Below are positions 3,801 through 34,555 of a stretch of 38,729 nucleotides of DNA, piece after piece. The notes below the pieces were generated by a model, which was not told the origin of the DNA, ran no database searches, and saw only the letters and a list, made by a program, of their open reading frames with translations. A program made the position numbers and the translations under genes. Source of the DNA: Shigella phage ESh10; sequence record ON528723, one strand, 5' to 3'. Numbering within the stretch: the stretch's first letter is position 1; the number at the start of each line of letters is the position of its first letter.

Positions 3801-3849
3801 CCAACTCACTGGCTCACCTTAACGGGTGGGCCTTTCTTCGTTCAGAGGT

Positions 3850-6835: not shown

Positions 6836-8650
<1,815 letters not shown>

Positions 8651-9279: not shown

Positions 9280-11394
9280 ATGCTCGTAAGTGACATTGAG
9301 GCCAACAACCTCTTAGAGAAAGTCACCAAGTTTCACTGTGGCGTTATCTATGACTACCGTGATGGTGAGTATCATAGTTATCGTCCGGGCGACTTCGGGG
9401 CGTATCTGGATGCGCTGGAAGCCGAGGTGAAGCGAGGTGGGCTTATTGTTTTCCATAACGGTCACAAGTATGACGTTCCGGCTTTAGAGAAACTCGCAAA
9501 GCTGCAACTCAATCGTGACTTCAAGTTACCGCGTGAGAATTGTATTGACACATTGGTACTCTCGCGTTTACTTCATGCGAACCTTAAAGACACAGACATG
9601 GGGCTTCTTCGTTCCGGGAAACTACCCGGTAGTCGCTTCGGGTCTCACGCTCTGGAGGCATGGGGTTATCGCTTGGGCGAGATGAAAGGTGAATACAAGG
9701 ACGACTTCAAGGCTATGCTGGAAGAGCAGGGCGAAGAATATGTTGATGGTGCTGAGTGGGTTTCATTCAACGAGCCGATGATGGCGTATAACGTTCAAGA
9801 CGTTGTGGTCACTGTTAAGCTCTTAGAGAAATTCCTTACAGACCTCCACTACTTCCCTGCTGGTATGGACTTCACGAAATACGATGCGGATTTATTCTGG
9901 CGTGAAGCTGGCGAGTCTGTGGATATTGAACATCGTGCAGCGTGGCTTTTAGCGAAGCAGGAGCGTAACGGCTTCCCGTTCAACACACAGGCCATTGAGG
10001 AACTTTATGTAGAACTGGCAGCGAAACGCGCCGAACTTCTGAGAAAGCTAACCGAAACGTTTGGCTCATGGTATCAACCGAAAGGTGGTAAGGAGCTCTT
10101 CAAGCACCCACGGACAGGCAAGCCGCTGCCGAGTTATCCGCGCGTGGTCTATCCGAAACAGGGTGGCGTGTACAAGAAGCCTCGTAATAAGGCACAGCGC
10201 GAAGGTCTTGAACCTTGCGACTTGGACACTAGGGATTACATGGAGGGTGCTCCGTATACTCCGGTCGAGTTCGTTACGTTCAAGCCAAGTAGCCGTGACC
10301 ACATTCAGAAGAAACTACAGGAGGCCGGATGGGTTCCTGAGAAGTTCACCGAGAAGGGTGCGCCTGTGGTGGATGATGAGGTCTTGGAGCATGTACGAGT
10401 GGATGACCCTGAGAAGCAGGCGTGCATTGACTTGATTAAAGAGTACCTGATGATTCAGAAGCGAATCGGTCAGGCGGCAGAGGGCGACAAGGCGTGGTTA
10501 CGTTATGTTCAAGATGATGGCAAGATTCATGGAGCCGTTAACCCTAACGGTGCAGTTACTGGTCGTGCTACTCATAGTTTCCCAAACCTTGCACAAGTAC
10601 CCGGCGTTCGTTCTCCTTATGGGGAGCAGTGTCGTAGCGCTTTTGGTGCTGAACATCATTTGGATGGGATTACTGGCAAGCCGTGGGTGCAAGCAGGGAT
10701 AGACGCCAGTGGCTTAGAGTTGCGCTGTCTGGCACACTTCATGGCTCGCTTCGACAACGGAGAGTATGCGAATGAGATTCTCAACGGTGACATTCACACC
10801 AAGAACCAGAACGCTGCGGAACTCCCAACGCGCGACAACGCCAAGACCTTCATTTACGGGTTCCTTTACGGAGCAGGAGATGAGAAGATTGGTCAGATTG
10901 TTGGGGCAGGGAAGGAGCGCGGGAAGGAACTCAAGAAGAAATTCTTAGAGAACACCCCGGCGATTGCAGCGCTACGAGAAGCTATCCAACAGTCTCTCGT
11001 TAAGTCTTCCGCTTGGATTGGTGGTGAGCAGAAAGTCCAGTGGAAACGCCGTTGGATTAAGGGTCTGGATGGTCGCAAGGTTCACGTCAGGTCTCCACAC
11101 GCAGCGCTCAACACATTGTTGCAGTCTGCTGGTGCTCTAATTTGTAAGCTGTGGATTATCAAGACCGAAGAGATGCTCATTGAGAAAGGCTTGAAGCATG
11201 GCTGGGATGGTGACTTTGCGTACATGGCTTGGGTTCACGATGAGATTCAGGTGGCCTGCCGTACAGAGCACATCGCTCAGATTGTTATTGACACCGCGCA
11301 GGAAGCTATGCGTTGGGTAGGAGAGCATTGGGCTTTCCGTTGTCGTTTAGATACCGAAGGTAAGATGGGGCCGAATTGGGCTGTCTGCCACTAA
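9280..11394 (+). CDS. 5: DNA polymerase (family A, with thioredoxin-binding insert)
   Basis: 704 aa; near-identical in blocks to T7 DNAP (…HNGHKYDVPAL…, …DASGLELRCLAHF…, …VHDEIQV…). Confidence 0.96.
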   Translation: MLVSDIEANNLLEKVTKFHCGVIYDYRDGEYHSYRPGDFGAYLDALEAEVKRGGLIVFHNGHKYDVPALEKLAKLQLNRDFKLPRENCIDTLVLSRLLHANLKDTDMGLLRSGKLPGSRFGSHALEAWGYRLGEMKGEYKDDFKAMLEEQGEEYVDGAEWVSFNEPMMAYNVQDVVVTVKLLEKFLTDLHYFPAGMDFTKYDADLFWREAGESVDIEHRAAWLLAKQERNGFPFNTQAIEELYVELAAKRAELLRKLTETFGSWYQPKGGKELFKHPRTGKPLPSYPRVVYPKQGGVYKKPRNKAQREGLEPCDLDTRDYMEGAPYTPVEFVTFKPSSRDHIQKKLQEAGWVPEKFTEKGAPVVDDEVLEHVRVDDPEKQACIDLIKEYLMIQKRIGQAAEGDKAWLRYVQDDGKIHGAVNPNGAVTGRATHSFPNLAQVPGVRSPYGEQCRSAFGAEHHLDGITGKPWVQAGIDASGLELRCLAHFMARFDNGEYANEILNGDIHTKNQNAAELPTRDNAKTFIYGFLYGAGDEKIGQIVGAGKERGKELKKKFLENTPAIAALREAIQQSLVKSSAWIGGEQKVQWKRRWIKGLDGRKVHVRSPHAALNTLLQSAGALICKLWIIKTEEMLIEKGLKHGWDGDFAYMAWVHDEIQVACRTEHIAQIVIDTAQEAMRWVGEHWAFRCRLDTEGKMGPNWAVCH

Positions 11395-15756: not shown

Positions 15757-16689
15757 ATGGCTGAATCTAATGCAGACGTTTATGCGTCCTTCGGTGTGAA
15801 CAACGCGGTAATGACCGGAAGCACACCTATTGAACACGAACAAAATATGCTGAGTCTCGATGTTGCTGCCCGTGATGGCGATGATGCAATCGTGCTTAGC
15901 GAGGAACCGAGTTCTCATGACGATGACCCTTATGCGGCTGGTGAAGACCCATTCGCCGATGGTGAGGACGATGAGGGCCGCATTCAGGTTCGTATCAGTG
16001 AAGATGGTAACGAAGCCGAGTTCGACACTGGTAGCGATAACGCTGAGGTGGAGACAGAAGGTGAGGCCGCTGAGTTTGAGCCGCTGGGTGACACTCCAGA
16101 AGAACTGAGCCAAGTGACTGAACAATTAGGTCAGCACGAAGAAGGCTTTCAGGCGATGGTCGAGCAGGCCGTTGAGCGTGGACTGAGCGCAGAGTCTGTG
16201 ACTCGCATCTACGAAGAGTACGAAGCCGATGGCATCTCTGAGAAATCCTATGCGGAACTCGAAGCTGCTGGATATAGCCGTGCCTTTGTGGACTCCTACA
16301 TCTCCGGTCAGGAAGCCCTTGTAGACCAGTACGTCAATCAGGTAGTTGCCTTTGCTGGTGGTAAGGAACGCTTTAGCGCAATCCATACGCACCTTGAAGC
16401 AACCAACCCGGCTGCGGCTGAGTCCCTTGAGACTGCCATGATTAACCGAGACTTGGCGACTGTCAAAGCAATTATCAATCTGGCTGGTGAGAGTTACACG
16501 AAGAAATTCGGTAAGCCCGCCAACCGTAGTGTTACCAAGCGTGCTACTCCGGTTAAACCTGTAGCTCGCCAGAAAGAGGGCTTTACGAATCAGGCTGAGA
16601 TGATTAAAGCTATGAGTGACCCGCGTTACCGTAGCGATGCTGCCTACCGTCAAATGGTAGAACAGAAGGTTATCGACTCCAGTTTCTAA
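15757..16689 (+). CDS. 9: capsid assembly (scaffolding) protein
   Basis: 310 aa, highly acidic; slot and composition of T7 gp9. Confidence 0.88.
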   Translation: MAESNADVYASFGVNNAVMTGSTPIEHEQNMLSLDVAARDGDDAIVLSEEPSSHDDDPYAAGEDPFADGEDDEGRIQVRISEDGNEAEFDTGSDNAEVETEGEAAEFEPLGDTPEELSQVTEQLGQHEEGFQAMVEQAVERGLSAESVTRIYEEYEADGISEKSYAELEAAGYSRAFVDSYISGQEALVDQYVNQVVAFAGGKERFSAIHTHLEATNPAAAESLETAMINRDLATVKAIINLAGESYTKKFGKPANRSVTKRATPVKPVARQKEGFTNQAEMIKAMSDPRYRSDAAYRQMVEQKVIDSSF

Positions 16690-27400: not shown

Positions 27401-28424
27401 GGCTGCACGCTCTCCTTGGACAATGCTCCTAAACGGAACATCAAACTACATTCTTGATGCTGCCCGTCAGGGTGTGCTTGGGGATGTGGCTGGAGCGGCC
27501 CTTGCTGGGAAAGCCTCTAAGTTCGGTAAGGCAAACTACCTTAAGTCTGCCTCTATCAGCCCTGAGCAGTGGAATGGAATCAAGCAGTTGTTCAGAGACC
27601 ATGCGACTCGTGGAGAAGACGGTAAGTTCACCATTCGTGACAAACAGGCTTTCGCTAACGACCCACGTTCAATGGACTTGTGGCGACTGGCTGATAAGGT
27701 GGCGGATGAGACTATACTGCGCCCTCACAAGGTTTCCTCACAGGACTCCAAAGCGTTCGGTGCAGGGGTGAAGATGGTGATGCAGTTTAAGAACTTCGTC
27801 ATCAAGTCCCTTAACTCCCGGTTCGTCCGTAGCTTCTACGAGGCAACTAAGAACAACCGTGCGTTAGACCAAGCGTTGACTCATATCATCTCCTTGGGTC
27901 TAGCTGGTGGTTACTACGTTGCGCAGGCGCACCTTAAGGCCGCAAGCCTACAGGAGCACAAACGTAAGGAGTACCTTAAGAACGCCCTTGACCCTAAGAT
28001 GATTGCTCATGCATCAATCTCTCGTAGCTCACACTTAGGCTCACCATTGAGTATCTACGATATGTTCGCTGGGATGGTTGGTAGCGATACCTATAAGTAC
28101 ACCCGCTCTACGGTGCTCCCTAAAGAGTCCGAGAAGCGTGACCCTAACAAGGCAGTGACAGGTAGACAGGTGGCTTCGACTATCGCAGGTGCAGTTGGTG
28201 AGCAGGTTCCGGGTTTAGGTTTTGTTGGCTCTGTGGGTGCAACAGCTATTAACGCTGCTTCCCTGCTGTCTTCTCCAAACAAGGCTACCGCTCTGGAGTT
28301 CCGTACAGGACTCTTCAACACCTCTCGTGAGTTGATTCCTAATGACCCGCTATCGCAGCAACTCATTATGAAAATCTACGAGGCCAATGGTATCCGCATA
28401 AAGGAGATTCCGAAGAAACAATAA
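24462..28424 (+). CDS. 16: internal virion (core) protein D with N-terminal lytic transglycosylase domain
   Basis: 1320 aa; N-terminus …LLRKLAFNESSFNPKAKSPTGPKGLMQFT… is a soluble lytic transglycosylase-type motif. Confidence 0.93.
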   Translation: MSYDKNKPSEFDGLFQKAADKHGVSYDLLRKLAFNESSFNPKAKSPTGPKGLMQFTKGTATALGLKVTDADDDDRYNPELAVDAAARHLSDLIRKYDGDELKAALAYNQGEGRNGAPQMQAYDKGDWASISEEGRNYMRNLMDVANSPRKGDLEAFGGITPKAKGIPSGDAFAGIGKKQTVGTDLPESTGFKVEGKEQQAPNVPYAKDFWEKTGTTLDEFNSRSTFFGIGDATSAELHNSVLGVAFRAARSDDGFDLFKDTITPTRWNSHTWTPEELERIRKEVKNPSYINVVTGGSPENLDALIKMANDNYEMDARSADAGVGAKLTAGIVGAGVDPLSYVPLVGVAGKGLKVVNRAFIVGTQSAGLAVASEGIRTSIAGGEAHYVDAALGGLMFGAGMSAISDAIAAGVRRSRGTEVVNDFAPMAHRLEARETALNSGGEDLTRMPSENRVFDREHAGVEYSPLETEPGAVVLPQGQILSDTNPLNPQTLSEFEAVNPERAARGISLGGFTEIGLKTLRSENPTVRSIASDLVRSPTGMESGSNGKFGATASDIKERLHANNQRTYNQLYDAVRIAMKDPEFSTGGATMSRKEIRQEIYKRAALAIERPELQANLTKGERNVMNILKQHFDLKREIMENPSIFGNTKAVSIFPGSRHKGTYVPNVYDRAIKIEMVKRYGNDGLQRAIAESWLTSYRARPEVKARVDEYLMELNGLKSVQEVTPEMVQKHAMDKAYGISHTDQFSASSVIDDNIEGLVGIENNNFLEARNMFDSDMAVTLPDGNTFSVNDLRTYDMAEILPAYDRRVDGDVAIMGGSGKTTKDLKDEIMALDKQSEGNGTLKGEVEALKDTVKILTGRARRNPEGAWGTALRSVNDLTFFAKNAYMGAQNVTEIAGMLAKGNVSAITHGIPMINDWVNRGKPLRASEIKEIHGMVFGKELDQLIRPGREDHVRRLRESTDTSAAVANVVGTIRFGTQELAARSPWTMLLNGTSNYILDAARQGVLGDVAGAALAGKASKFGKANYLKSASISPEQWNGIKQLFRDHATRGEDGKFTIRDKQAFANDPRSMDLWRLADKVADETILRPHKVSSQDSKAFGAGVKMVMQFKNFVIKSLNSRFVRSFYEATKNNRALDQALTHIISLGLAGGYYVAQAHLKAASLQEHKRKEYLKNALDPKMIAHASISRSSHLGSPLSIYDMFAGMVGSDTYKYTRSTVLPKESEKRDPNKAVTGRQVASTIAGAVGEQVPGLGFVGSVGATAINAASLLSSPNKATALEFRTGLFNTSRELIPNDPLSQQLIMKIYEANGIRIKEIPKKQ

Positions 28425-28443
28425 ACCCTCACTAAAGGGAGAG
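28420..28443 (+). promoter_or_regulatory. T3-type phage RNAP promoter
   Basis: aataaaccctcactaaagggagag. Confidence 0.8.
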
Positions 28444-28496: not shown

Positions 28497-30239
28497 ATGG
28501 CTACAACTATTAAGACCGTGATGACTTACCCGCTGGATGGTTCAACTACGGACTTTAATATTCCGTTCGAGTATCTGGCGCGTAAGTTCGTCCGAGTGAC
28601 CCTTATCGGTGTTGACCGAAAGGAACTCATCTTGAATAAAGACTATCGTTTTGCGACTAAGACCACAATCTCCACAACGAGAGCATTGGGGCCAGCGGAC
28701 GGTTATAACCTTATCGAGATTCGTCGGTACACCTCAGCGACTGAACGTCTGGTTGACTTTACGGATGGCTCAATCCTCCGTGCGTATGACCTGAACATCT
28801 CGCAGGTGCAGACCCTCCACGTTGCTGAGGAAGCGCGTGACCTTACCGCTGATACGATTGGCGTTAACAACGATGGTGACTTGGATGCTCGTGGTCGTCG
28901 TATCGTGAACGTTGCGGACGCTAAAGACCACGGTGATGCAATCAACTTAGGTCAAGTCCAGAAGTGGAACGACTCTGCGTTGAACTCTGCGAACCGCGCA
29001 CGGGCTGAGGCCGACCGTGCAACTGTGCGTGCTTCCGAGGCTGCTACCTCTGCGGGTAACTCTGCGAGTTCTGCAAGCCTGTCCCGTGATTGGGCTATCA
29101 AGGAATCGCCGGTGGAAGGAACCTTTAAGTCTTCCCGGTCGTATGCCCTTGACTCTATGGCGTACCGGGATGCGTCCAAGAGTTCTGCTGATGCTAGTGC
29201 TGCAAGTGCTGGTGCCGCGAAGACCTCTGAGATTAACACGAAGAACTCAGAAATCGCCGCGAAGACCTCTGAGACCAACGCGAAGGCCTCTGAGACCAAC
29301 GCTAAGGCTTCCGAGGAACGAGCCATTGAGGAAGCAAATAAGCTGGAGAACATGAATGGATTGGCTGGTGCCCTTGATAGGGTAGATGGAACAAATGTAT
29401 ACTGGAAAGGAAATATTAACGCTAATGGGCGGCTTTTCCTGACCAAAAACGGTTTTGATTGTGGTCAGTATCAACAGTTCTTTGGAGGCGAACCTAACCG
29501 TTACTCTGTCATGGAGTGGGGTGATAAGGACGGCTGGCATTTGTATTCTGAGAGGAAAACCGAAGGCGGTAGGCCAACGCTTAACGTGTTTGGTGATTTG
29601 AGCGTCGGTTTTGATATTCGGGCTGGTGCTACTCAATTTGCTAATCACATGTTTGTACACGACATGGTACAATACTGGCCCGGTGCTGGCAAGTTTGCTA
29701 ACCAGTTGTCTATCCCAGAAGCGCCATTTATCAAACAAGGGAGATACGAGGCCCCATCTGGTAACAGCTTATACGCCCCTATTGTTAAGGGAATCATACG
29801 GACGGCAGGTCACGGGTATAACACAGCGCTGTCCTTTGGTACTCTAACACAGGGTAACGGGTCGTTTGCTTCTGCGTGTATTCATGCGATTGGGGATAAC
29901 GGCACTTCTGGTTTCTGGGAATTTAACCCTAACAATAGGTCCTTCCGTAGTCAAGGTGATGGGCTCTTTGGCAACACTACTGTCTATCAGGATGGTAACA
30001 TCGGTGGCCCTACGTGGGGTGGCGACCTAGCGCAATGGCTCAGAGTAAATACGGTTAACCACATTGCTATGGGTGGAGTCAACCAGTCAACAGTGTGGAA
30101 TAGCTACGGTGTTTCTGATGGTGGCGGTAAGGTAGTAACTGGCGTTGTAAACTCTAACGCTGATGGTGCGATAGACTTTTGTCAGTGGCGTGTTATGCAA
30201 TTCGTTCGTAACGACGGTCAACGCTTTAATATTTACTGA
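28497..30239 (+). CDS. 17: tail fibre protein (T7 gp17-type N-terminal adaptor domain; heterologous-looking distal domain)
   Basis: 580 aa; N-terminus MATTIKTVMTYPLDGSTTDFNIPFEYLARKFV…DFTDGSILRAYDLN is the conserved tail-attachment domain; shaft with heptad-like repeats; distal ~250 aa Gly/Asn/Trp-rich. Confidence 0.9.
   Translation: MATTIKTVMTYPLDGSTTDFNIPFEYLARKFVRVTLIGVDRKELILNKDYRFATKTTISTTRALGPADGYNLIEIRRYTSATERLVDFTDGSILRAYDLNISQVQTLHVAEEARDLTADTIGVNNDGDLDARGRRIVNVADAKDHGDAINLGQVQKWNDSALNSANRARAEADRATVRASEAATSAGNSASSASLSRDWAIKESPVEGTFKSSRSYALDSMAYRDASKSSADASAASAGAAKTSEINTKNSEIAAKTSETNAKASETNAKASEERAIEEANKLENMNGLAGALDRVDGTNVYWKGNINANGRLFLTKNGFDCGQYQQFFGGEPNRYSVMEWGDKDGWHLYSERKTEGGRPTLNVFGDLSVGFDIRAGATQFANHMFVHDMVQYWPGAGKFANQLSIPEAPFIKQGRYEAPSGNSLYAPIVKGIIRTAGHGYNTALSFGTLTQGNGSFASACIHAIGDNGTSGFWEFNPNNRSFRSQGDGLFGNTTVYQDGNIGGPTWGGDLAQWLRVNTVNHIAMGGVNQSTVWNSYGVSDGGGKVVTGVVNSNADGAIDFCQWRVMQFVRNDGQRFNIY
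29217..29322 (+). repeat. approximately 21-bp imperfect tandem repeat (about 4-5 units) within gene 17
   Basis: gcgaagacctctgagaccaac-like units; protein-level repeat AKTSE(T/I)N. Confidence 0.6.
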
Positions 30240-30251
30240 TAGGAGGACGAT

Positions 30252-30776
30252 ATGGGAACTTTACGTCACTATAAGAATTTCGTAAATTACACTCCAGAAC
30301 GCACCAAAGAGAATGCAGACCTTCTAGACCACGGAGTCGGTTTCTCAAAGGATGAGAACGGGAATGACTGGTATGAACTTCGCAATACATTCCGTGAGGA
30401 TACATGGAAACTTGTCTACGCCAAAGATGGTTCAGTTATTCAATGTGAACAGGATGTTCAGGAGTTAGCCGTTCAGGGATCTGCTGGGGTGGTTGAGCTT
30501 GAGGAAATCCCTACTGAGTATTCTCGGTACAATATGGTTCAGTGGGGGTGGGACGGCGATAAGCTAACTTGGCATCCTCGGTACTTTGAGCACAAGAAGG
30601 CCCAGCTAATCTCTATGGCCTCCAAGAAGATTGAGCAGTATGCTGACTTTATAGCTCTTGGGGAGGAGGGATTAGAGGGTCTACTAAATGCGTGGCGAGC
30701 CTATCGCCTTGCTGTATATAAAGTAGACCTTAGTGTTCTACCTTTCTATGACTGGCCCGAGCAACCAGAAACCTAA
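30252..30776 (+). CDS. tail fibre assembly (Tfa-like) chaperone
   Basis: 174 aa; AGGAGG SD 13 nt after gene 17 stop; C-terminus …GLLNAWRAYRLAVYKVDLSVLPFYDWPEQPET matches the lambda Tfa / P2 G / Mu U C-terminal motif (LxAWxxYRxxLxxVDxSxxPxxxWPxxP). Confidence 0.7.
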   Translation: MGTLRHYKNFVNYTPERTKENADLLDHGVGFSKDENGNDWYELRNTFREDTWKLVYAKDGSVIQCEQDVQELAVQGSAGVVELEEIPTEYSRYNMVQWGWDGDKLTWHPRYFEHKKAQLISMASKKIEQYADFIALGEEGLEGLLNAWRAYRLAVYKVDLSVLPFYDWPEQPET

Positions 30777-30835
30777 TGACAACCTCAAGGAAAGACGTGT
30801 AGTCCACGGATGGACTCTTACAAGGAGGACACTAC

Positions 30836-31039
30836 ATGCTGTCTTTAGATTTTAACAACGAGTTAGTCAAGGCTGCACCTATTGTTGGTACAGGTGTTGC
30901 CGATGGCGCTGCGAGGCTTTTCTTCGGGTTGAGTCTTAATGAGTGGTTCTACGTTGCAGCTATCGCCTACACAGTGGTTCAGATTGGTGCCAAGGTAGTC
31001 GATAAGATGATTGACTGGAAACGTGCAAATAAGGAGTGA
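30836..31039 (+). CDS. 17.5: type II holin
   Basis: 67 aa; a hydrophobic segment and a charged C-terminus; T7 gp17.5-like. Confidence 0.8.
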   Translation: MLSLDFNNELVKAAPIVGTGVADGAARLFFGLSLNEWFYVAAIAYTVVQIGAKVVDKMIDWKRANKE

Positions 31040-33669: not shown

Positions 33670-33692
33670 AATTAACCCTCACTAAAGGGAGA
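33670..33692 (+). promoter_or_regulatory. T3-type phage RNAP promoter (right-end promoter, phiOR-like)
   Basis: aattaaccctcactaaagggagag. Confidence 0.8.
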
Positions 33693-34076: not shown

Positions 34077-34555
34077 ACCTAAAGATGCCCTGTAGTTCGT
34101 AATGGTCTTACAGGGTCTTCTGGTGTCTCCTAGCTATCCCTTCGGGATGCGCCTATGGTCTCACCTATGGTGTGGCCTTACCTAAAGTGGTTGCCTAAAG
34201 AGACCCTTTAAGAATTTACCACAAAAATCTGAATGGGTATCTCACAGTTCAAGAACCCAAAGTACCCCCATAGCCCTCCTAAAGCCACCTAAAGCCAGCC
34301 CTACCCTAGGGTTTAACCTTCGGTTAACCTTGGGTATCTCCTCAAGTGGCCTATAGGATAGCCTAAAGTGTTGCCTAAAGTCAATACCTAAAGAGGTGGA
34401 TGGCTTAAGGAGGACTTGAAGAGTGTCCTAGTGTACCAGTTCGATAGTACATCTCTATGTGTCCCTATCTGTTAGCCTCATAAAGTAAACCCTAAAGCCA
34501 CCACCTAAAGACCAGACCTAAAGCCACCACCTAAAGAGTAGCGCTATCTTAAAGA
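34077..34555 (+). repeat. array of dispersed CCTAAAG-type heptamer repeats typical of T7-family genome ends
   Basis: More than 12 copies of (A)CCTAAAG or one-mismatch variants, e.g. 34077, 34181, 34194 and the run ccctaaagccaccacctaaagaccagacctaaagccaccacctaaagag. Confidence 0.7.
34240..34470 (+). repeat. terminal repeat of the mature genome (single copy here; genome left end at 34240)
   Basis: tctcacagttcaagaacccaaagtaccccc at 34240 matches the extreme left end of T3/T7 DNA (TCTCA(C/T)AGT…); right boundary (~34466-34470, …tgtgtccct) placed by analogy and approximate. Confidence 0.5.

What the first reader, a model, noticed from the sequence alone, without database searches (positions are those of the whole stretch)
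28497..30239. Mosaic tail fibre: conserved particle-binding N-terminus with a distal receptor-binding domain that appears exchanged
The first ~150 aa are the conserved gp17 tail-attachment domain. The distal ~250 aa are Gly/Asn/Trp-rich and, from memory, do not resemble the T3/T7 tip domain. The DNA from roughly 29400 through the Tfa ORF also looks more AT-rich at third codon positions than neighbouring structural genes. At 580 aa the protein is longer than I recall for T7/T3 gp17. Together with the Tfa gene this points to modular host-range switching.
Basis: partly seen in the sequence, partly recalled or inferred. Interest (0 to 1): 0.7.

Follow-up and report, generated by a model that had tools for sequence, protein, structure and literature searches.

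The report
T3-like phage fibre with Mu-type tip
This T3-like phage carries a patchwork tail-fibre gene whose outer half, with its own folding-helper gene, was swapped in as one cassette; this is real, but near-identical phages already show and annotate it, so it is ordinary.

Summary
Gene 17 (28497..30239, 580 aa) has the T7-type tail-attachment domain (PF03906, aa 1-155). A Mu/P2-type tail fibre assembly gene follows it (tfa, 30252..30776; PF02413; Mu U E 7.5e-10). T3 and T7 gp17 align collinearly only to aa 354. The last 226 aa are unrelated apart from a 44-residue neck motif.

Against a 97%-identical backbone relative (Klebsiella phage Kpn-11mx), homology stops at 29371 and resumes at 30822. 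That defines a 1.45-kb cassette: codons 293-580, tfa and the spacer. GC3 falls from 0.55 to 0.45 across it, the lowest of any comparable stretch in the genome.

The fibre is a nested mosaic with joints near aa 166, 292, 354 and 491. The cassette occurs in three Studiervirinae genera. Its mid-tip module also sits on P2 H-type and lambda Stf-type fibres.

Modular host-range exchange is well supported, but it is not new. LL2, Leclercia phage 10164-302 and Serratia phage Seera carry the same cassette (90-97% aa) and two annotate it. Kvp1 (2008) and BASEL phage Bas103 (2025) document Mu-like Tfa in T7-like phages. Receptor, chaperone dependence and Tfa retention on the virion are inferred. The structure model was poor.

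The parts
28422..28442 (+). T3-type phage RNA polymerase promoter (phi17) overlapping the end of gene 16. It drives gene 17, tfa and the downstream lysis and packaging genes.
   Evidence: TAAACCCTCACTAAAGGGAGA has 1 mismatch to the consensus and is one of 13 such sites in the window (0 expected). The next one downstream is at 33672.
28497..30239 (+). Gene 17, tail fibre protein, 580 aa (whole ORF including stop).
   Evidence: ORF. It is 96.8% nt identical to the annotated 'tail fiber protein' of Escherichia phage LL2.
28497..28961 (+). aa 1-155: T7-type tail-attachment domain.
   Evidence: PF03906 at E 4.4e-58. It matches solved T7 gp17 N-terminal structures (7boz, 8e4g, 8dsp). It is 98-99% aa identical to Kpn-11mx and phiCFP-1, and 77-78% to T3/T7.
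28962..29372 (+). aa 156-292: Ala/Ser-rich shaft, collinear with the T7 gp17 rod. It is the Klebsiella-phage Teetrevirus allele.
   Evidence: aa 167-292 are 96% identical to Kpn-11mx, 55% to phiCFP-1 and about 24% to T3/T7. Composition is A 24.6% and S 17.5%. DNA identity to phiCFP-1, 2050H2 and others ends at about nt 497-524 of the gene.
29373..29558 (+). aa 293-354: T7/T3-type first distal nodule. It is the first part of the exchanged cassette and a local divergence hot spot.
   Evidence: 73-76% aa identity to T3, T7, Kvp1 and ESh2, but 21% to Kpn-11mx. 83% nt identity to T7 and 76% to T3. dS against LL2 and the Leclercia phage is 0.41-0.62, compared with 0.03-0.2 in flanking segments.
29559..29966 (+). 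aa 355-490: mid-tip module with no T3/T7 counterpart. It is the candidate specificity-determining domain.
   Evidence: No BLASTP similarity to T3/T7. 148 HMMER hits among 1.84e9 representative proteins, mostly to aa ~392-524. Among 10 of these scanned against Pfam, fibres with T7-type (PF03906), P2 H-type (PF12571) and lambda Stf-type (PF08400) N-termini all occur. It is 48-56% identical to Kvp1, SPLA4 and ESh2 and absent from Yanou and Bas103.
29967..30047 (+). aa 491-517: neck motif FGNTTVYQDGNIGGPTWGGDLAQWLRV. This conserved island is also present in T7 gp17 (aa 434-460) and coincides with the third joint.
   Evidence: hhalign of the tip profile against T7/T3 C-terminal halves gives 94% probability over 44 columns. 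Homology to Yanou and Bas103 starts here.
30048..30236 (+). aa 518-580: C-terminal knob related to the distal end of the phage Mu fibre protein S. It is the presumed Tfa docking region.
   Evidence: A profile of 7 T7-like tips matches Mu S (8ju3) residues 426-480 at E 3.1e-7. It hits phrog_5454 at 2.3e-12. aa 492-580 are 63-69% identical in all Tfa-bearing T7-likes.
30241..30246 (+). Shine-Dalgarno sequence (AGGAGG) of tfa, in the 12 nt between the gene 17 stop and the tfa start.
   Evidence: Sequence TGATAGGAGGACGATATG. The equivalent site is annotated as an RBS in LL2.
30252..30776 (+). tfa: Mu U / P2 G / lambda Tfa-type tail fibre assembly protein, 174 aa.
   Evidence: PF02413 at 41.5 bits (cut-off 22.1). 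phrog_136 at 2.9e-38. Mu U (5yvq) at E 7.5e-10 over aa 5-173. dN/dS is 0.11-0.21 against the Leclercia and Serratia phages. The N-terminal half is 96-98% identical in ESh2, Yanou and Bas103.
29372..30821 (+). Exchanged cassette as defined against the Kpn-11mx-type backbone: codons 293-580 of gene 17, tfa and most of the spacer before the holin gene.
   Evidence: blastn shows 97.1% identity up to 29371, nothing in between, then 96.2% from 30822. The left joint lies in the shared coding island AA(T/C)G(G/A)TTTGGCTGGTGC (N-G/D-L-A-G-A). The right joint lies in the spacer just before the holin RBS. GC3 is 0.45.

Best explanation
The window is a Teetrevirus (T3-like podophage). Its gene 17 is a nested recombinant.

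The proximal part (tail-attachment domain and shaft, aa 1-292) is the allele shared with Klebsiella-, Citrobacter- and Serratia-infecting Teetrevirus phages. From codon 293 to just before the holin gene, a 1.45-kb cassette has replaced the resident allele. The exchange most likely occurred by homologous recombination at two short conserved islands: the N-G-L-A-G-A coding island, and the spacer and RBS before gene 17.5.

The cassette came from another T7-like phage. It is itself composite:
- a T7-type nodule (aa 293-354);
- a mid-tip module (aa 355-490) that also occurs on P2 H-type and lambda Stf-type fibres;
- a conserved neck motif;
- a Mu S-like C-terminal knob;
- the cognate Mu U-type Tfa.

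Inferred mechanism. Gene 17 and tfa are co-transcribed from phi17. Tfa binds the C-terminal knob through its N-terminal domain and, as a trimer, nucleates folding and trimerisation of the distal fibre from its tip. It may remain on the mature fibre, as in Mu. The distal fibre then binds a surface glycan, most likely LPS core or O-antigen, of an enterobacterial host. Specificity probably lies mainly in the variable aa 355-490 module rather than in the conserved knob-Tfa unit.

Shown here: the gene structure, the homologies, the breakpoints, the composition shift, purifying selection on tfa, and the distribution of the cassette. Inferred: the recombination mechanism, chaperone dependence, Tfa retention, receptor identity, and the location of specificity.
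For: - Identity of the phage and the cassette in near relatives.
- Domain assignments.
- Collinearity with T3/T7 only to aa 354.
- Segment-wise identities showing four joints.
- DNA breakpoints at 29371 and 30822, and the junction alignments.
- The cassette is the largest non-homologous block against a whole-genome relative from another host genus.
- GC3 of 0.45 is the genome minimum and resembles gene 17 and tfa of Teseptimavirus phages (0.43-0.49).
- The tip and Tfa occur in Teetrevirus, Berlinvirus and Teseptimavirus genomes. A metagenomic T7-like phage with yet another mid-section also has a Caudo_TAP gene downstream.
- 14 T7-like records carry the knob and 14 records carry a Tfa above 60% identity.
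- tfa is under purifying selection.
- There is one promoter upstream and none inside the cassette.
- Literature: Kvp1 gene 17.2 is annotated as a tail fibre assembly protein and Kvp1's 17-17.2 region is described as divergent (PMC2579914). Bas103 has a Mu-like Tfa predicted to form a 3:3 complex with its fibre, and it depends on O16 O-antigen (PMC11990801). The Mu Tfa N-terminal domain binds the fibre, the C-terminal domain trimerises, and Tfa stays on the virion (PMC9608196).
Against: - No experiment or reliable structure supports the mechanistic steps. The AlphaFold2 monomer of aa 293-580 was poor (pLDDT 54) and the fold search was inconclusive (best hit T7 gp17 371-553, E 0.015, TM 0.2-0.3).
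- The link to Mu S rests on about 55 residues.
- No donor with more than 90% identity outside the LL2 group was found, so the direction and number of exchange events are inferred.
- Gene 17 of T3 and T7 also has lowered GC3, which weakens composition as evidence of transfer.
- Phages with 90-93% identical tips are recorded on three host genera. The link between tip and host is therefore not simple.
- The near-identical Tfa in phages of different hosts argues against Tfa as the specificity determinant, but it does not say what the determinant is.
Confidence: 0.85

Rival explanations
1. There was no exchange. The distal fibre and the downstream ORF are ancestral to this lineage, and they simply diverged fast under host-driven selection while the rest of the genome stayed conserved.
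For: Receptor-binding regions do evolve fast. Within the LL2 group the distal half shows more amino-acid change (89-94% identity) than the N-terminus (98%). Gene 17 has lower GC3 than its neighbours in T3 and T7 too.
Against: Identity to Kpn-11mx drops from 97% to undetectable within a few bases at 29371 and returns at 30822. The tfa region is 84-89% nt identical to Teseptimavirus phages whose flanking genes are about 67-78% identical to the window. The mid-tip module occurs on fibres with unrelated N-termini. The T3/T7 tips are not homologous at all.
Confidence: 0.03
2. The 174-aa protein is not only a folding chaperone. It is a permanent distal component of the fibre that itself contacts the cell, so it acts as an adhesin or co-receptor-binding subunit in the manner reported for Mu Tfa. 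The functional receptor-binding unit would be a gp17(3):Tfa(3) complex.
For: There is full-length homology to Mu U. Mu Tfa is reported to stay on mature virions and to contribute to host recognition (PMC9608196; North & Davidson 2021, cited in PMC11915804). [quoted passage not shown] Strong conservation of Tfa together with the knob across genera fits a co-evolving structural unit.
Against: The Tfa N-terminal half is 96-98% identical in phages isolated on E. coli, Shigella, Cedecea, Leclercia and Serratia. It therefore cannot set host specificity by itself. Some Tfa-type chaperones are absent from virions (Pam3 gp25, PMC9608196). There are no proteomic data for any Tfa-bearing T7-like phage in what I read.
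Confidence: 0.35
3. The cassette was captured recently and directly from a temperate Mu-, P2- or lambda-like prophage of the host, rather than from another T7-like phage.
For: The Tfa family and the mid-tip module are typical of myovirus and siphovirus prophage fibres, for example Pantoea ananatis 'H', Fels-2 gpH-like and Mu-like Yersinia phages.
Against: The cassette begins with a T7-type gp17 segment (aa 293-354, 83% nt identity to T7). The nearest non-podovirus tips are only 30-39% identical. There is no blastn match of the tip plus tfa in 5,426 complete E. coli genomes. The same gp17::tip fusion point is shared by Kvp1, SPLA4 and ESh2. The capture from a prophage-type fibre is therefore old and predates the exchange seen here.
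Confidence: 0.05
4. The mosaic is an assembly chimera of two co-cultured or co-sequenced T7-like phages.
For: The probable source study isolated both Teetrevirus and Tfa-bearing Teseptimavirus phages from sewage (PMC9686686).
Against: Four independently isolated phages (six database records) from the USA, India and an unrecorded location carry the same joints and the same cassette at 94-97% nt identity. The ESh2 cassette is only 74-89% identical, so it cannot be the source of a chimera.
Confidence: 0.01

Closest known systems
Escherichia phage LL2 (MH717709) tail fiber protein LL2_044 and tail fiber assembly protein LL2_045; also Leclercia phage 10164-302/10164RH and Serratia phage Seera
   Same: Same genus (Teetrevirus), same gene order, same four joints and the same cassette. 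The region is 96.8% nt identical over 2,280 bp. The tip is 90-93% aa identical and Tfa is 95-97%. LL2 and the Leclercia phages already annotate both genes.
   Different: There are a few percent of substitutions, concentrated in codons 293-354 (dS 0.4-0.6). LL2 carries three HNH endonuclease genes elsewhere in its genome that the window lacks. The recorded hosts differ (E. coli, Leclercia, Serratia).
Kluyvera phage Kvp1 gp17 and gp17.2 (Berlinvirus; Lingohr et al. 2008, PMC2579914), with Salmonella phage SPLA4 and Shigella phages ESh2/ESh6
   Same: T7-type N-terminus, the same fusion point of the T7-type nodule to the tip (EWGDKDGWHLYSER), a homologous full tip (55-60% aa), and a Tfa directly downstream (79-92% aa).
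   Different: The backbones belong to other genera (Berlinvirus, Teseptimavirus). The shaft alleles differ (about 25-28% identity in aa 167-292) and the tip is substantially diverged.
Escherichia phage EmilieLinder (Bas103) Gp59 fibre and Gp60 Mu-like Tfa (Humolli et al. 2025, PMC11990801); Cedecea phage Yanou; Escherichia phage PGX1
   Same: A T7-like fibre ending in the same neck motif and knob (63-69% aa over aa 492-580), with a Tfa about 92% identical (Yanou; Bas103 is 96% and 86% in the two halves). It has been described as a Mu-like Tfa predicted to form a 3:3 complex with the fibre.
   Different: The whole mid-section (aa 293-491) is unrelated. Bas103 depends on O16 O-antigen. The receptor of the window phage is unknown.
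Phage Mu tail fibre S (gp49) and assembly protein U (gp50) (North et al. 2019; PDB 5yvq, 8ju3); P2 H/G and lambda Stf/Tfa
   Same: Tfa is homologous along its full length to Mu U (E 7.5e-10) and belongs to PF02413. The fibre's last ~55 residues align to Mu S 426-480. The gene order is fibre then tfa. The mid-tip module is shared with P2 H-type and Stf-type fibres.
   Different: The fibre is attached to a podovirus tail through a T7-type N-terminal domain instead of a myovirus baseplate-binding domain. There is no invertible G segment or alternative S'/U' pair. Sequence identity is low (about 30%). Chaperone dependence and virion retention are untested here.
T7 and T3 gp17 (PDB 4a0t/4a0u tip; 7boz and related N-terminal structures)
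   Same: The N-terminal domain, the shaft, the first distal nodule (aa 1-354, 57% identity), the genomic position, the phi17 promoter, and a 44-residue neck motif.
   Different: There is no homologue of the T7 pyramid and tip domains (T7 aa 371-553) outside the neck motif. A separate chaperone gene is present, which T3 and T7 lack.

Membership tests
T7/T3 gp17-type podovirus tail fibre | N-terminal Phage_T7_tail domain that docks the fibre on the gp11/gp12 tail | tested here: met
   PF03906 at E 4.4e-58, 195.9 bits (cut-off 25.2), aa 1-155. Solved T7 gp17 N-terminal chains match at E 1e-120 to 1e-72.
T7/T3 gp17-type podovirus tail fibre | Encoded between gene 16 and the holin gene 17.5, downstream of a phage-RNAP promoter | tested here: met
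   Gene order and the LL2 annotation. T3-type promoter at 28422-28442.
T7/T3 gp17-type podovirus tail fibre | Collinear homology through the shaft and the first distal nodule | tested here: met
   BLASTP aligns aa 1-354 to T3 and T7 aa 1-337, 57% identity, E 8e-128 and 4e-135.
T7/T3 gp17-type podovirus tail fibre | T7-type C-terminal pyramid and tip domains (T7 aa 371-553), which fold without a separate chaperone gene | tested here: not met
   No significant BLASTP or phmmer similarity beyond aa 354. Only a 44-column neck motif aligns by hhalign. Foldseek on a low-confidence model is inconclusive. A tfa gene is present, unlike in T3 and T7.
Mu S/U - P2 H/G - lambda Stf/Tfa type, Tfa-dependent fibre tip | Separate tail fibre assembly gene immediately downstream of the fibre gene | tested here: met
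   tfa at 30252..30776 starts 12 nt after the gene 17 stop and has its own AGGAGG.
Mu S/U - P2 H/G - lambda Stf/Tfa type, Tfa-dependent fibre tip | The assembly protein belongs to the Caudo_TAP family and is homologous to Mu U | tested here: met
   PF02413 at 41.5 bits against a cut-off of 22.1. phrog_136 at 2.9e-38. Mu U 5yvq at E 7.5e-10 over aa 5-173.
Mu S/U - P2 H/G - lambda Stf/Tfa type, Tfa-dependent fibre tip | The fibre C-terminus is homologous to the Tfa-binding distal end of such fibres | tested here: met
   The profile of T7-like tips matches Mu S (8ju3) 426-480 at E 3.1e-7; a single sequence gives E 2.6e-4. The stretch is short (about 55 aa), so the support is modest.
Mu S/U - P2 H/G - lambda Stf/Tfa type, Tfa-dependent fibre tip | Myovirus or siphovirus-type N-terminal attachment domain (PF12571, PF08400 and similar) | tested here: not met
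   The N-terminus is PF03906. Relatives of the tip carry PF12571 or PF08400 instead.
Mu S/U - P2 H/G - lambda Stf/Tfa type, Tfa-dependent fibre tip | The fibre needs Tfa to trimerise; Tfa forms a 3:3 complex and may stay on the virion and bind LPS | not testable with these tools
   Only monomer prediction was available and it was poor. The property is known for Mu from the literature.
Fibres and spikes with a C-terminal intramolecular chaperone (Peptidase_S74) | C-terminal Peptidase_S74 / endosialidase chaperone domain | tested here: not met
   No PF13884 hit in the window protein. The sister phage phiCFP-1 has one at aa 539-607 (E 3e-12).

The most novel reading that the evidence does not exclude
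In this class of T7-like fibres the extreme C-terminal knob and Tfa may form a conserved, host-independent 'folding and docking' unit that stays on the virion. Host specificity would then be carried by the interchangeable mid-tip module (aa 355-490), which is bracketed by two conserved linker islands: the EWGD...SER junction and the DGNIxGxxWGG neck. That is the reverse of the T7 paradigm, where loops of the terminal tip domain set host range. It would give a ready-made three-joint scheme for engineering podophage host range. No Tfa-bearing T7-like fibre had been characterised experimentally in the literature I could search.
Probability: 0.3. Interest if true: 0.45.

Novelty: already known. 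Interest (0 to 1): 0.2.

Why it matters
For annotating this genome, the result is practical. Gene 17 and the ORF after it form a unit (receptor-binding fibre plus cognate chaperone), and 29372-30821 is the segment to move or mutate when changing or mapping host range.

More broadly it is one more clean example of a familiar pattern. Closely related T3-like backbones at 95-97% identity occur on at least eight enterobacterial genera. They differ mainly in a distal-fibre cassette that travels with its own folding solution. Four solutions occur at this one locus: none (T3/T7), an intramolecular chaperone (phiCFP-1), a short Tfa-like ORF (Kpn-11mx), and a Mu-type Tfa (this phage).

This does not open a new question. 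Tail-fibre modularity, Tfa chaperones and their presence in T7-like phages are all documented.

Tried and rejected
- The search for homologous proteins with the single tip sequence returned one hit. It was too insensitive, so I replaced it with the exhaustive HMMER search and a profile query.
This is expected for one chain of an interdigitated trimer. I do not use the model beyond noting that the Foldseek top hit was the T7 gp17 C-terminal structure at a non-significant E of 0.015.
- NCBIfam had no match for either protein.
- blastn of the tip plus tfa against 5,426 complete E. coli genomes found nothing. I therefore dropped a recent E. coli prophage donor.
- I considered that GC3 alone proves foreign origin. 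I rejected this because T3 and T7 gene 17 are also GC3-poor.
- I considered the cassette a gain of Tfa by a Tfa-less lineage. I rejected this after finding a Tfa-like ORF in the replaced Kpn-11mx allele.
- I considered a regulatory hairpin before the holin RBS. Folding was not better than shuffles (z -0.81).
- North & Davidson 2021 (PMC7811200) was not held, so its claims are cited second-hand.
- Accession ON528723 (ESh10) is not in the collection. The identity of the window could not be verified.
Full report
**What is there.**
The window is a complete, circularly permuted genome of a T3-like podophage (genus Teetrevirus). It is 96-97% nt identical over long stretches to Escherichia phage LL2, Leclercia phage 10164-302 and other Teetrevirus members. 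Thirteen T3-type promoters are present where none is expected by chance.

The finding's ORF is real. Gene 17 runs 28497..30239 (580 aa) and a 174-aa ORF follows at 30252..30776. Upstream lies a phi17 promoter (28422-28442). Twelve bases separate the two ORFs and contain AGGAGG. No further phage promoter occurs until 33672, so gene 17, tfa, holin, terminase and spanin genes are read as one late transcript. That last step is inference from the promoter map.

All four hold, with corrections.

- N-terminal domain: aa 1-155 are the T7-type tail-attachment domain (PF03906, E 4.4e-58; solved T7 gp17 N-terminal structures).
- Length: the protein is longer than T7 gp17 (553 aa) and T3 gp17 (558 aa).
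- Homology to T3/T7: it does not stop at aa 150. BLASTP aligns aa 1-354 collinearly at 57% identity, then finds nothing. Within that span the shaft (aa 167-292) is only about 24% identical, while aa 293-354 rise again to 73-76%.
- Distal composition: the unrelated distal part is 226 aa. It is enriched about two-fold in Gly (15.5%), Asn (8.8%) and Trp (2.7%).
- Third-position composition: GC3 falls from 0.55 (codons 1-292) to 0.44-0.46 (codons 293-580 and tfa), against a genome mean of 0.58. No other 226- or 400-codon stretch of the genome is as low.
- Caveat: gene 17 of T3 and T7 is also GC3-poor relative to its neighbours. The shift is supportive, not decisive.

**Breakpoints.**
Klebsiella phage Kpn-11mx is a Teetrevirus 97% identical in the flanks. 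Against it, blastn identity ends at window 29371 and resumes at 30822.

The left joint lies inside a roughly 20-nt island coding N-(G/D)-L-A-G-A. Both the Klebsiella-type and the T7-type gene 17 share this island. The right joint lies in the spacer just before the holin ribosome-binding site.

Against the whole genome of Salmonella phage 1Sgal1PP, the only large non-homologous block is 28921-30821 (1,901 bp). Every other gap is 237 bp or less.

Segment-wise protein identities and the nested megablast end-points give at least four joints:

- about aa 166: phiCFP-1 and 2050H2 share only the first ~497 nt;
- aa 292: the Klebsiella-phage allele ends;
- about aa 354: the T3/T7-type sequence ends, and the fusion point is shared with Kvp1, SPLA4 and ESh2;
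- about aa 491: homology to Yanou, Bas103 and PGX1 begins.

The last joint coincides with a neck motif (DGNIxGxxWGG..L..WL). hhalign also finds this motif in T7 gp17 aa 434-477 (94% probability). All the joints therefore sit at conserved islands or domain borders, as expected for homologous recombination between diverged alleles.

Codons 293-354 are additionally a local hot spot. dS against LL2 and the Leclercia phage is 0.41-0.62, compared with 0.03-0.2 in the flanks. The segment is closest to T7 (83% nt), which suggests further small patches of exchange.

**What the cassette encodes.**
The 174-aa protein is a Mu U / P2 G / lambda Tfa-type tail fibre assembly protein. The evidence:

- PF02413 at 41.5 bits against a cut-off of 22.1;
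- phrog_136 at 2.9e-38;
- full-length match to Mu U, PDB 5yvq, at E 7.5e-10.

It is under purifying selection (dN/dS 0.11-0.21 against two relatives).

The fibre's last ~55 residues match the distal end of Mu fibre protein S (8ju3 residues 426-480, E 3.1e-7 with a profile).

An exhaustive HMMER search of 1.84 billion representative proteins found 148 relatives of the tip. Most share aa ~392-524. Among the 10 scanned against Pfam, this module sits behind T7-type, P2 H-type (PF12571; for example 'H' of a Pantoea ananatis prophage) and lambda Stf-type (PF08400) N-termini. The nearest non-podovirus relatives in the phage collection are Mu-like Yersinia phages, Fels-2 and P1-like SJ46, at 30-39% identity.

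There is no DNA match in 5,426 complete E. coli genomes. The module's prophage-type ancestry is therefore old, and the immediate donor was another T7-like phage.

**Distribution.**
The tip plus Tfa occurs in:

- Teetrevirus: this window, LL2, 10164-302/RH and Seera;
- Berlinvirus: Kvp1 and SPLA4;
- Teseptimavirus: ESh2, ESh6 and Yanou;
- Bas103, placed in Teseptimavirus by PMC11990801, and PGX1, whose genus I did not check.

Fourteen T7-like records carry the knob and fourteen carry a Tfa above 60% identity. A metagenomic T7-like phage with yet another mid-section (Gp34_trimer domain) also has a Caudo_TAP gene directly downstream.

The Tfa N-terminal half is 96-98% identical across phages from E. 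coli, Shigella, Cedecea, Leclercia and Serratia. The knob is 63-69% identical and the mid-tip module 48-56% identical or absent.

**How it most likely works.**
This rests on homology to the Mu system (North et al. 2019, as summarised in PMC9608196) and on the predicted Bas103 complex (PMC11990801).

Tfa trimerises through its conserved C-terminal helical domain. It grips the fibre's distal knob with its N-terminal domain, and so nucleates folding and registration of the trimeric distal fibre. It may remain bound in the virion, as in Mu.

The fibre then binds a surface glycan. T7-like phages use the LPS core or O-antigen, and Bas103 needs O16 O-antigen.

Because the knob-Tfa unit is conserved across hosts while aa 355-490 vary, I place specificity mainly in the mid-tip module. 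All of this paragraph is inference. The structure model was too poor to help (pLDDT 54; Foldseek E 0.015 to the T7 gp17 tip).

**Comparison with what is known.**
The same cassette is deposited in LL2, 10164-302 and Seera, and LL2 and the Leclercia phages annotate it as 'tail fiber protein' plus 'tail fiber assembly protein'.

Kvp1's gene 17.2 was annotated as a tail fibre assembly protein, and the 2008 paper named the 17-17.2 region as a divergent locus (PMC2579914). The 2025 BASEL paper explicitly describes a Mu-like Tfa after a Teseptimavirus fibre. Exchange of gp17 between Studiervirinae genera is also reported, for example for Sxt1 (PMC11680406).

The protein is a member of the gp17 family by its N-terminus, position and proximal 354 aa. 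It fails the T7-type tip criterion. Its distal end and chaperone meet the sequence criteria of the Mu S/U type but lack the myovirus attachment domain. It is best described as a gp17::Mu-type-tip hybrid, which is a known kind.

**Refinement on gain versus replacement.**
The Kpn-11mx allele that the cassette replaced is followed by a 136-aa 'hypothetical' ORF. That ORF hits the same Tfa PHROG (E 1e-12) but not Pfam. phiCFP-1's fibre ends in a Peptidase_S74 intramolecular chaperone. T3 and T7 have neither. The locus therefore cycles between alternative 'tip plus folding device' cassettes.

**Verdict.**
Interest is low. The only mildly novel reading left open is that specificity lies in the mid-tip module, while the knob and Tfa are a conserved, possibly virion-retained unit.

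**Provenance.**
The window length (38,729 bp) equals that of Shigella phage ESh10 (ON528723), a Teetrevirus whose closest relative is given as vB_YenP_AP5 (PMC9686686). That accession is absent from the searchable collection, and AP5 is among the window's good matches. The window is therefore probably ESh10, but this is unverified.

Noticed in passing
whole window (1-38729): The window length of 38,729 bp equals the genome size listed for Shigella phage ESh10 (ON528723, Teetrevirus, closest relative vB_YenP_AP5) in PMC9686686. That accession is missing from the phage collection, and AP5 is a 96.6% match. The window is probably ESh10, and the same study isolated ESh2 and ESh6, which carry a related tip and Tfa cassette.
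   Followed up: partly
L004:4722-5132 (Klebsiella phage Kpn-11mx, MW296877): The 136-aa 'hypothetical protein' directly after the Kpn-11mx fibre matches phrog_136 (tail fibre assembly protein) at E 1e-12 but has no Pfam hit. It aligns to profile positions 3-133 of 178, so it appears to lack the C-terminal part. It looks like an unannotated, shortened Tfa-like chaperone in the Klebsiella-type Teetrevirus allele.
   Followed up: partly
L012:3501-5441 (Citrobacter phage phiCFP-1): The fibre of this sister Teetrevirus ends in a Peptidase_S74 intramolecular chaperone domain (aa 539-607, E 3e-12). Three or four different fibre-folding solutions therefore occupy the same locus within one genus.
   Followed up: partly
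window 29373-29558: Codons 293-354 of gene 17 have dS of 0.41-0.62 against LL2 and the Leclercia phage, compared with 0.03-0.2 in adjacent segments. They are closest to T7 itself (83% nt). [quoted passage not shown]
   Followed up: partly
L009:4203-4808 (Shigella phage ESh2, record marked UNVERIFIED): The ESh2 tfa reading frame runs 27 codons past the position where all other Tfa proteins end, reading through the spacer towards the holin gene. This is either a lost stop codon or a sequencing error.
   Followed up: no
window 3794/3850, 5817/5922 and 11394/11399: LL2 has three HNH homing-endonuclease genes (LL2 7552-8025, 9903-10379, 15927-16295) at positions where the window has short junctions instead. 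The window genome lacks these insertions.
   Followed up: partly
window 30800-30815: An inverted repeat AGTCCA-cgga-TGGACT sits before the holin RBS. It is shared with ESh2, Yanou and T3, and phiCFP-1 has an apparently compensated version (AGACCA...TGGTCT). RNA folding of 30774-30840 is no better than shuffles (z -0.81), so there is no evidence of function.
   Followed up: partly
window 1 and 34495-34520: The window is circularly permuted relative to LL2. It starts inside the RNA polymerase gene (LL2 position 3826), and the LL2 genome ends map to about 34495-34520, where the alignment to LL2's right end and left end overlap by about 26 nt.
   Followed up: no
window 28952-29446 (- strand): A 164-aa antisense ORF lies inside the Ala/Ser-rich shaft-coding region of gene 17. 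Nothing supports it as a gene, and it is most likely a by-product of the biased codon composition of that region.
   Followed up: no
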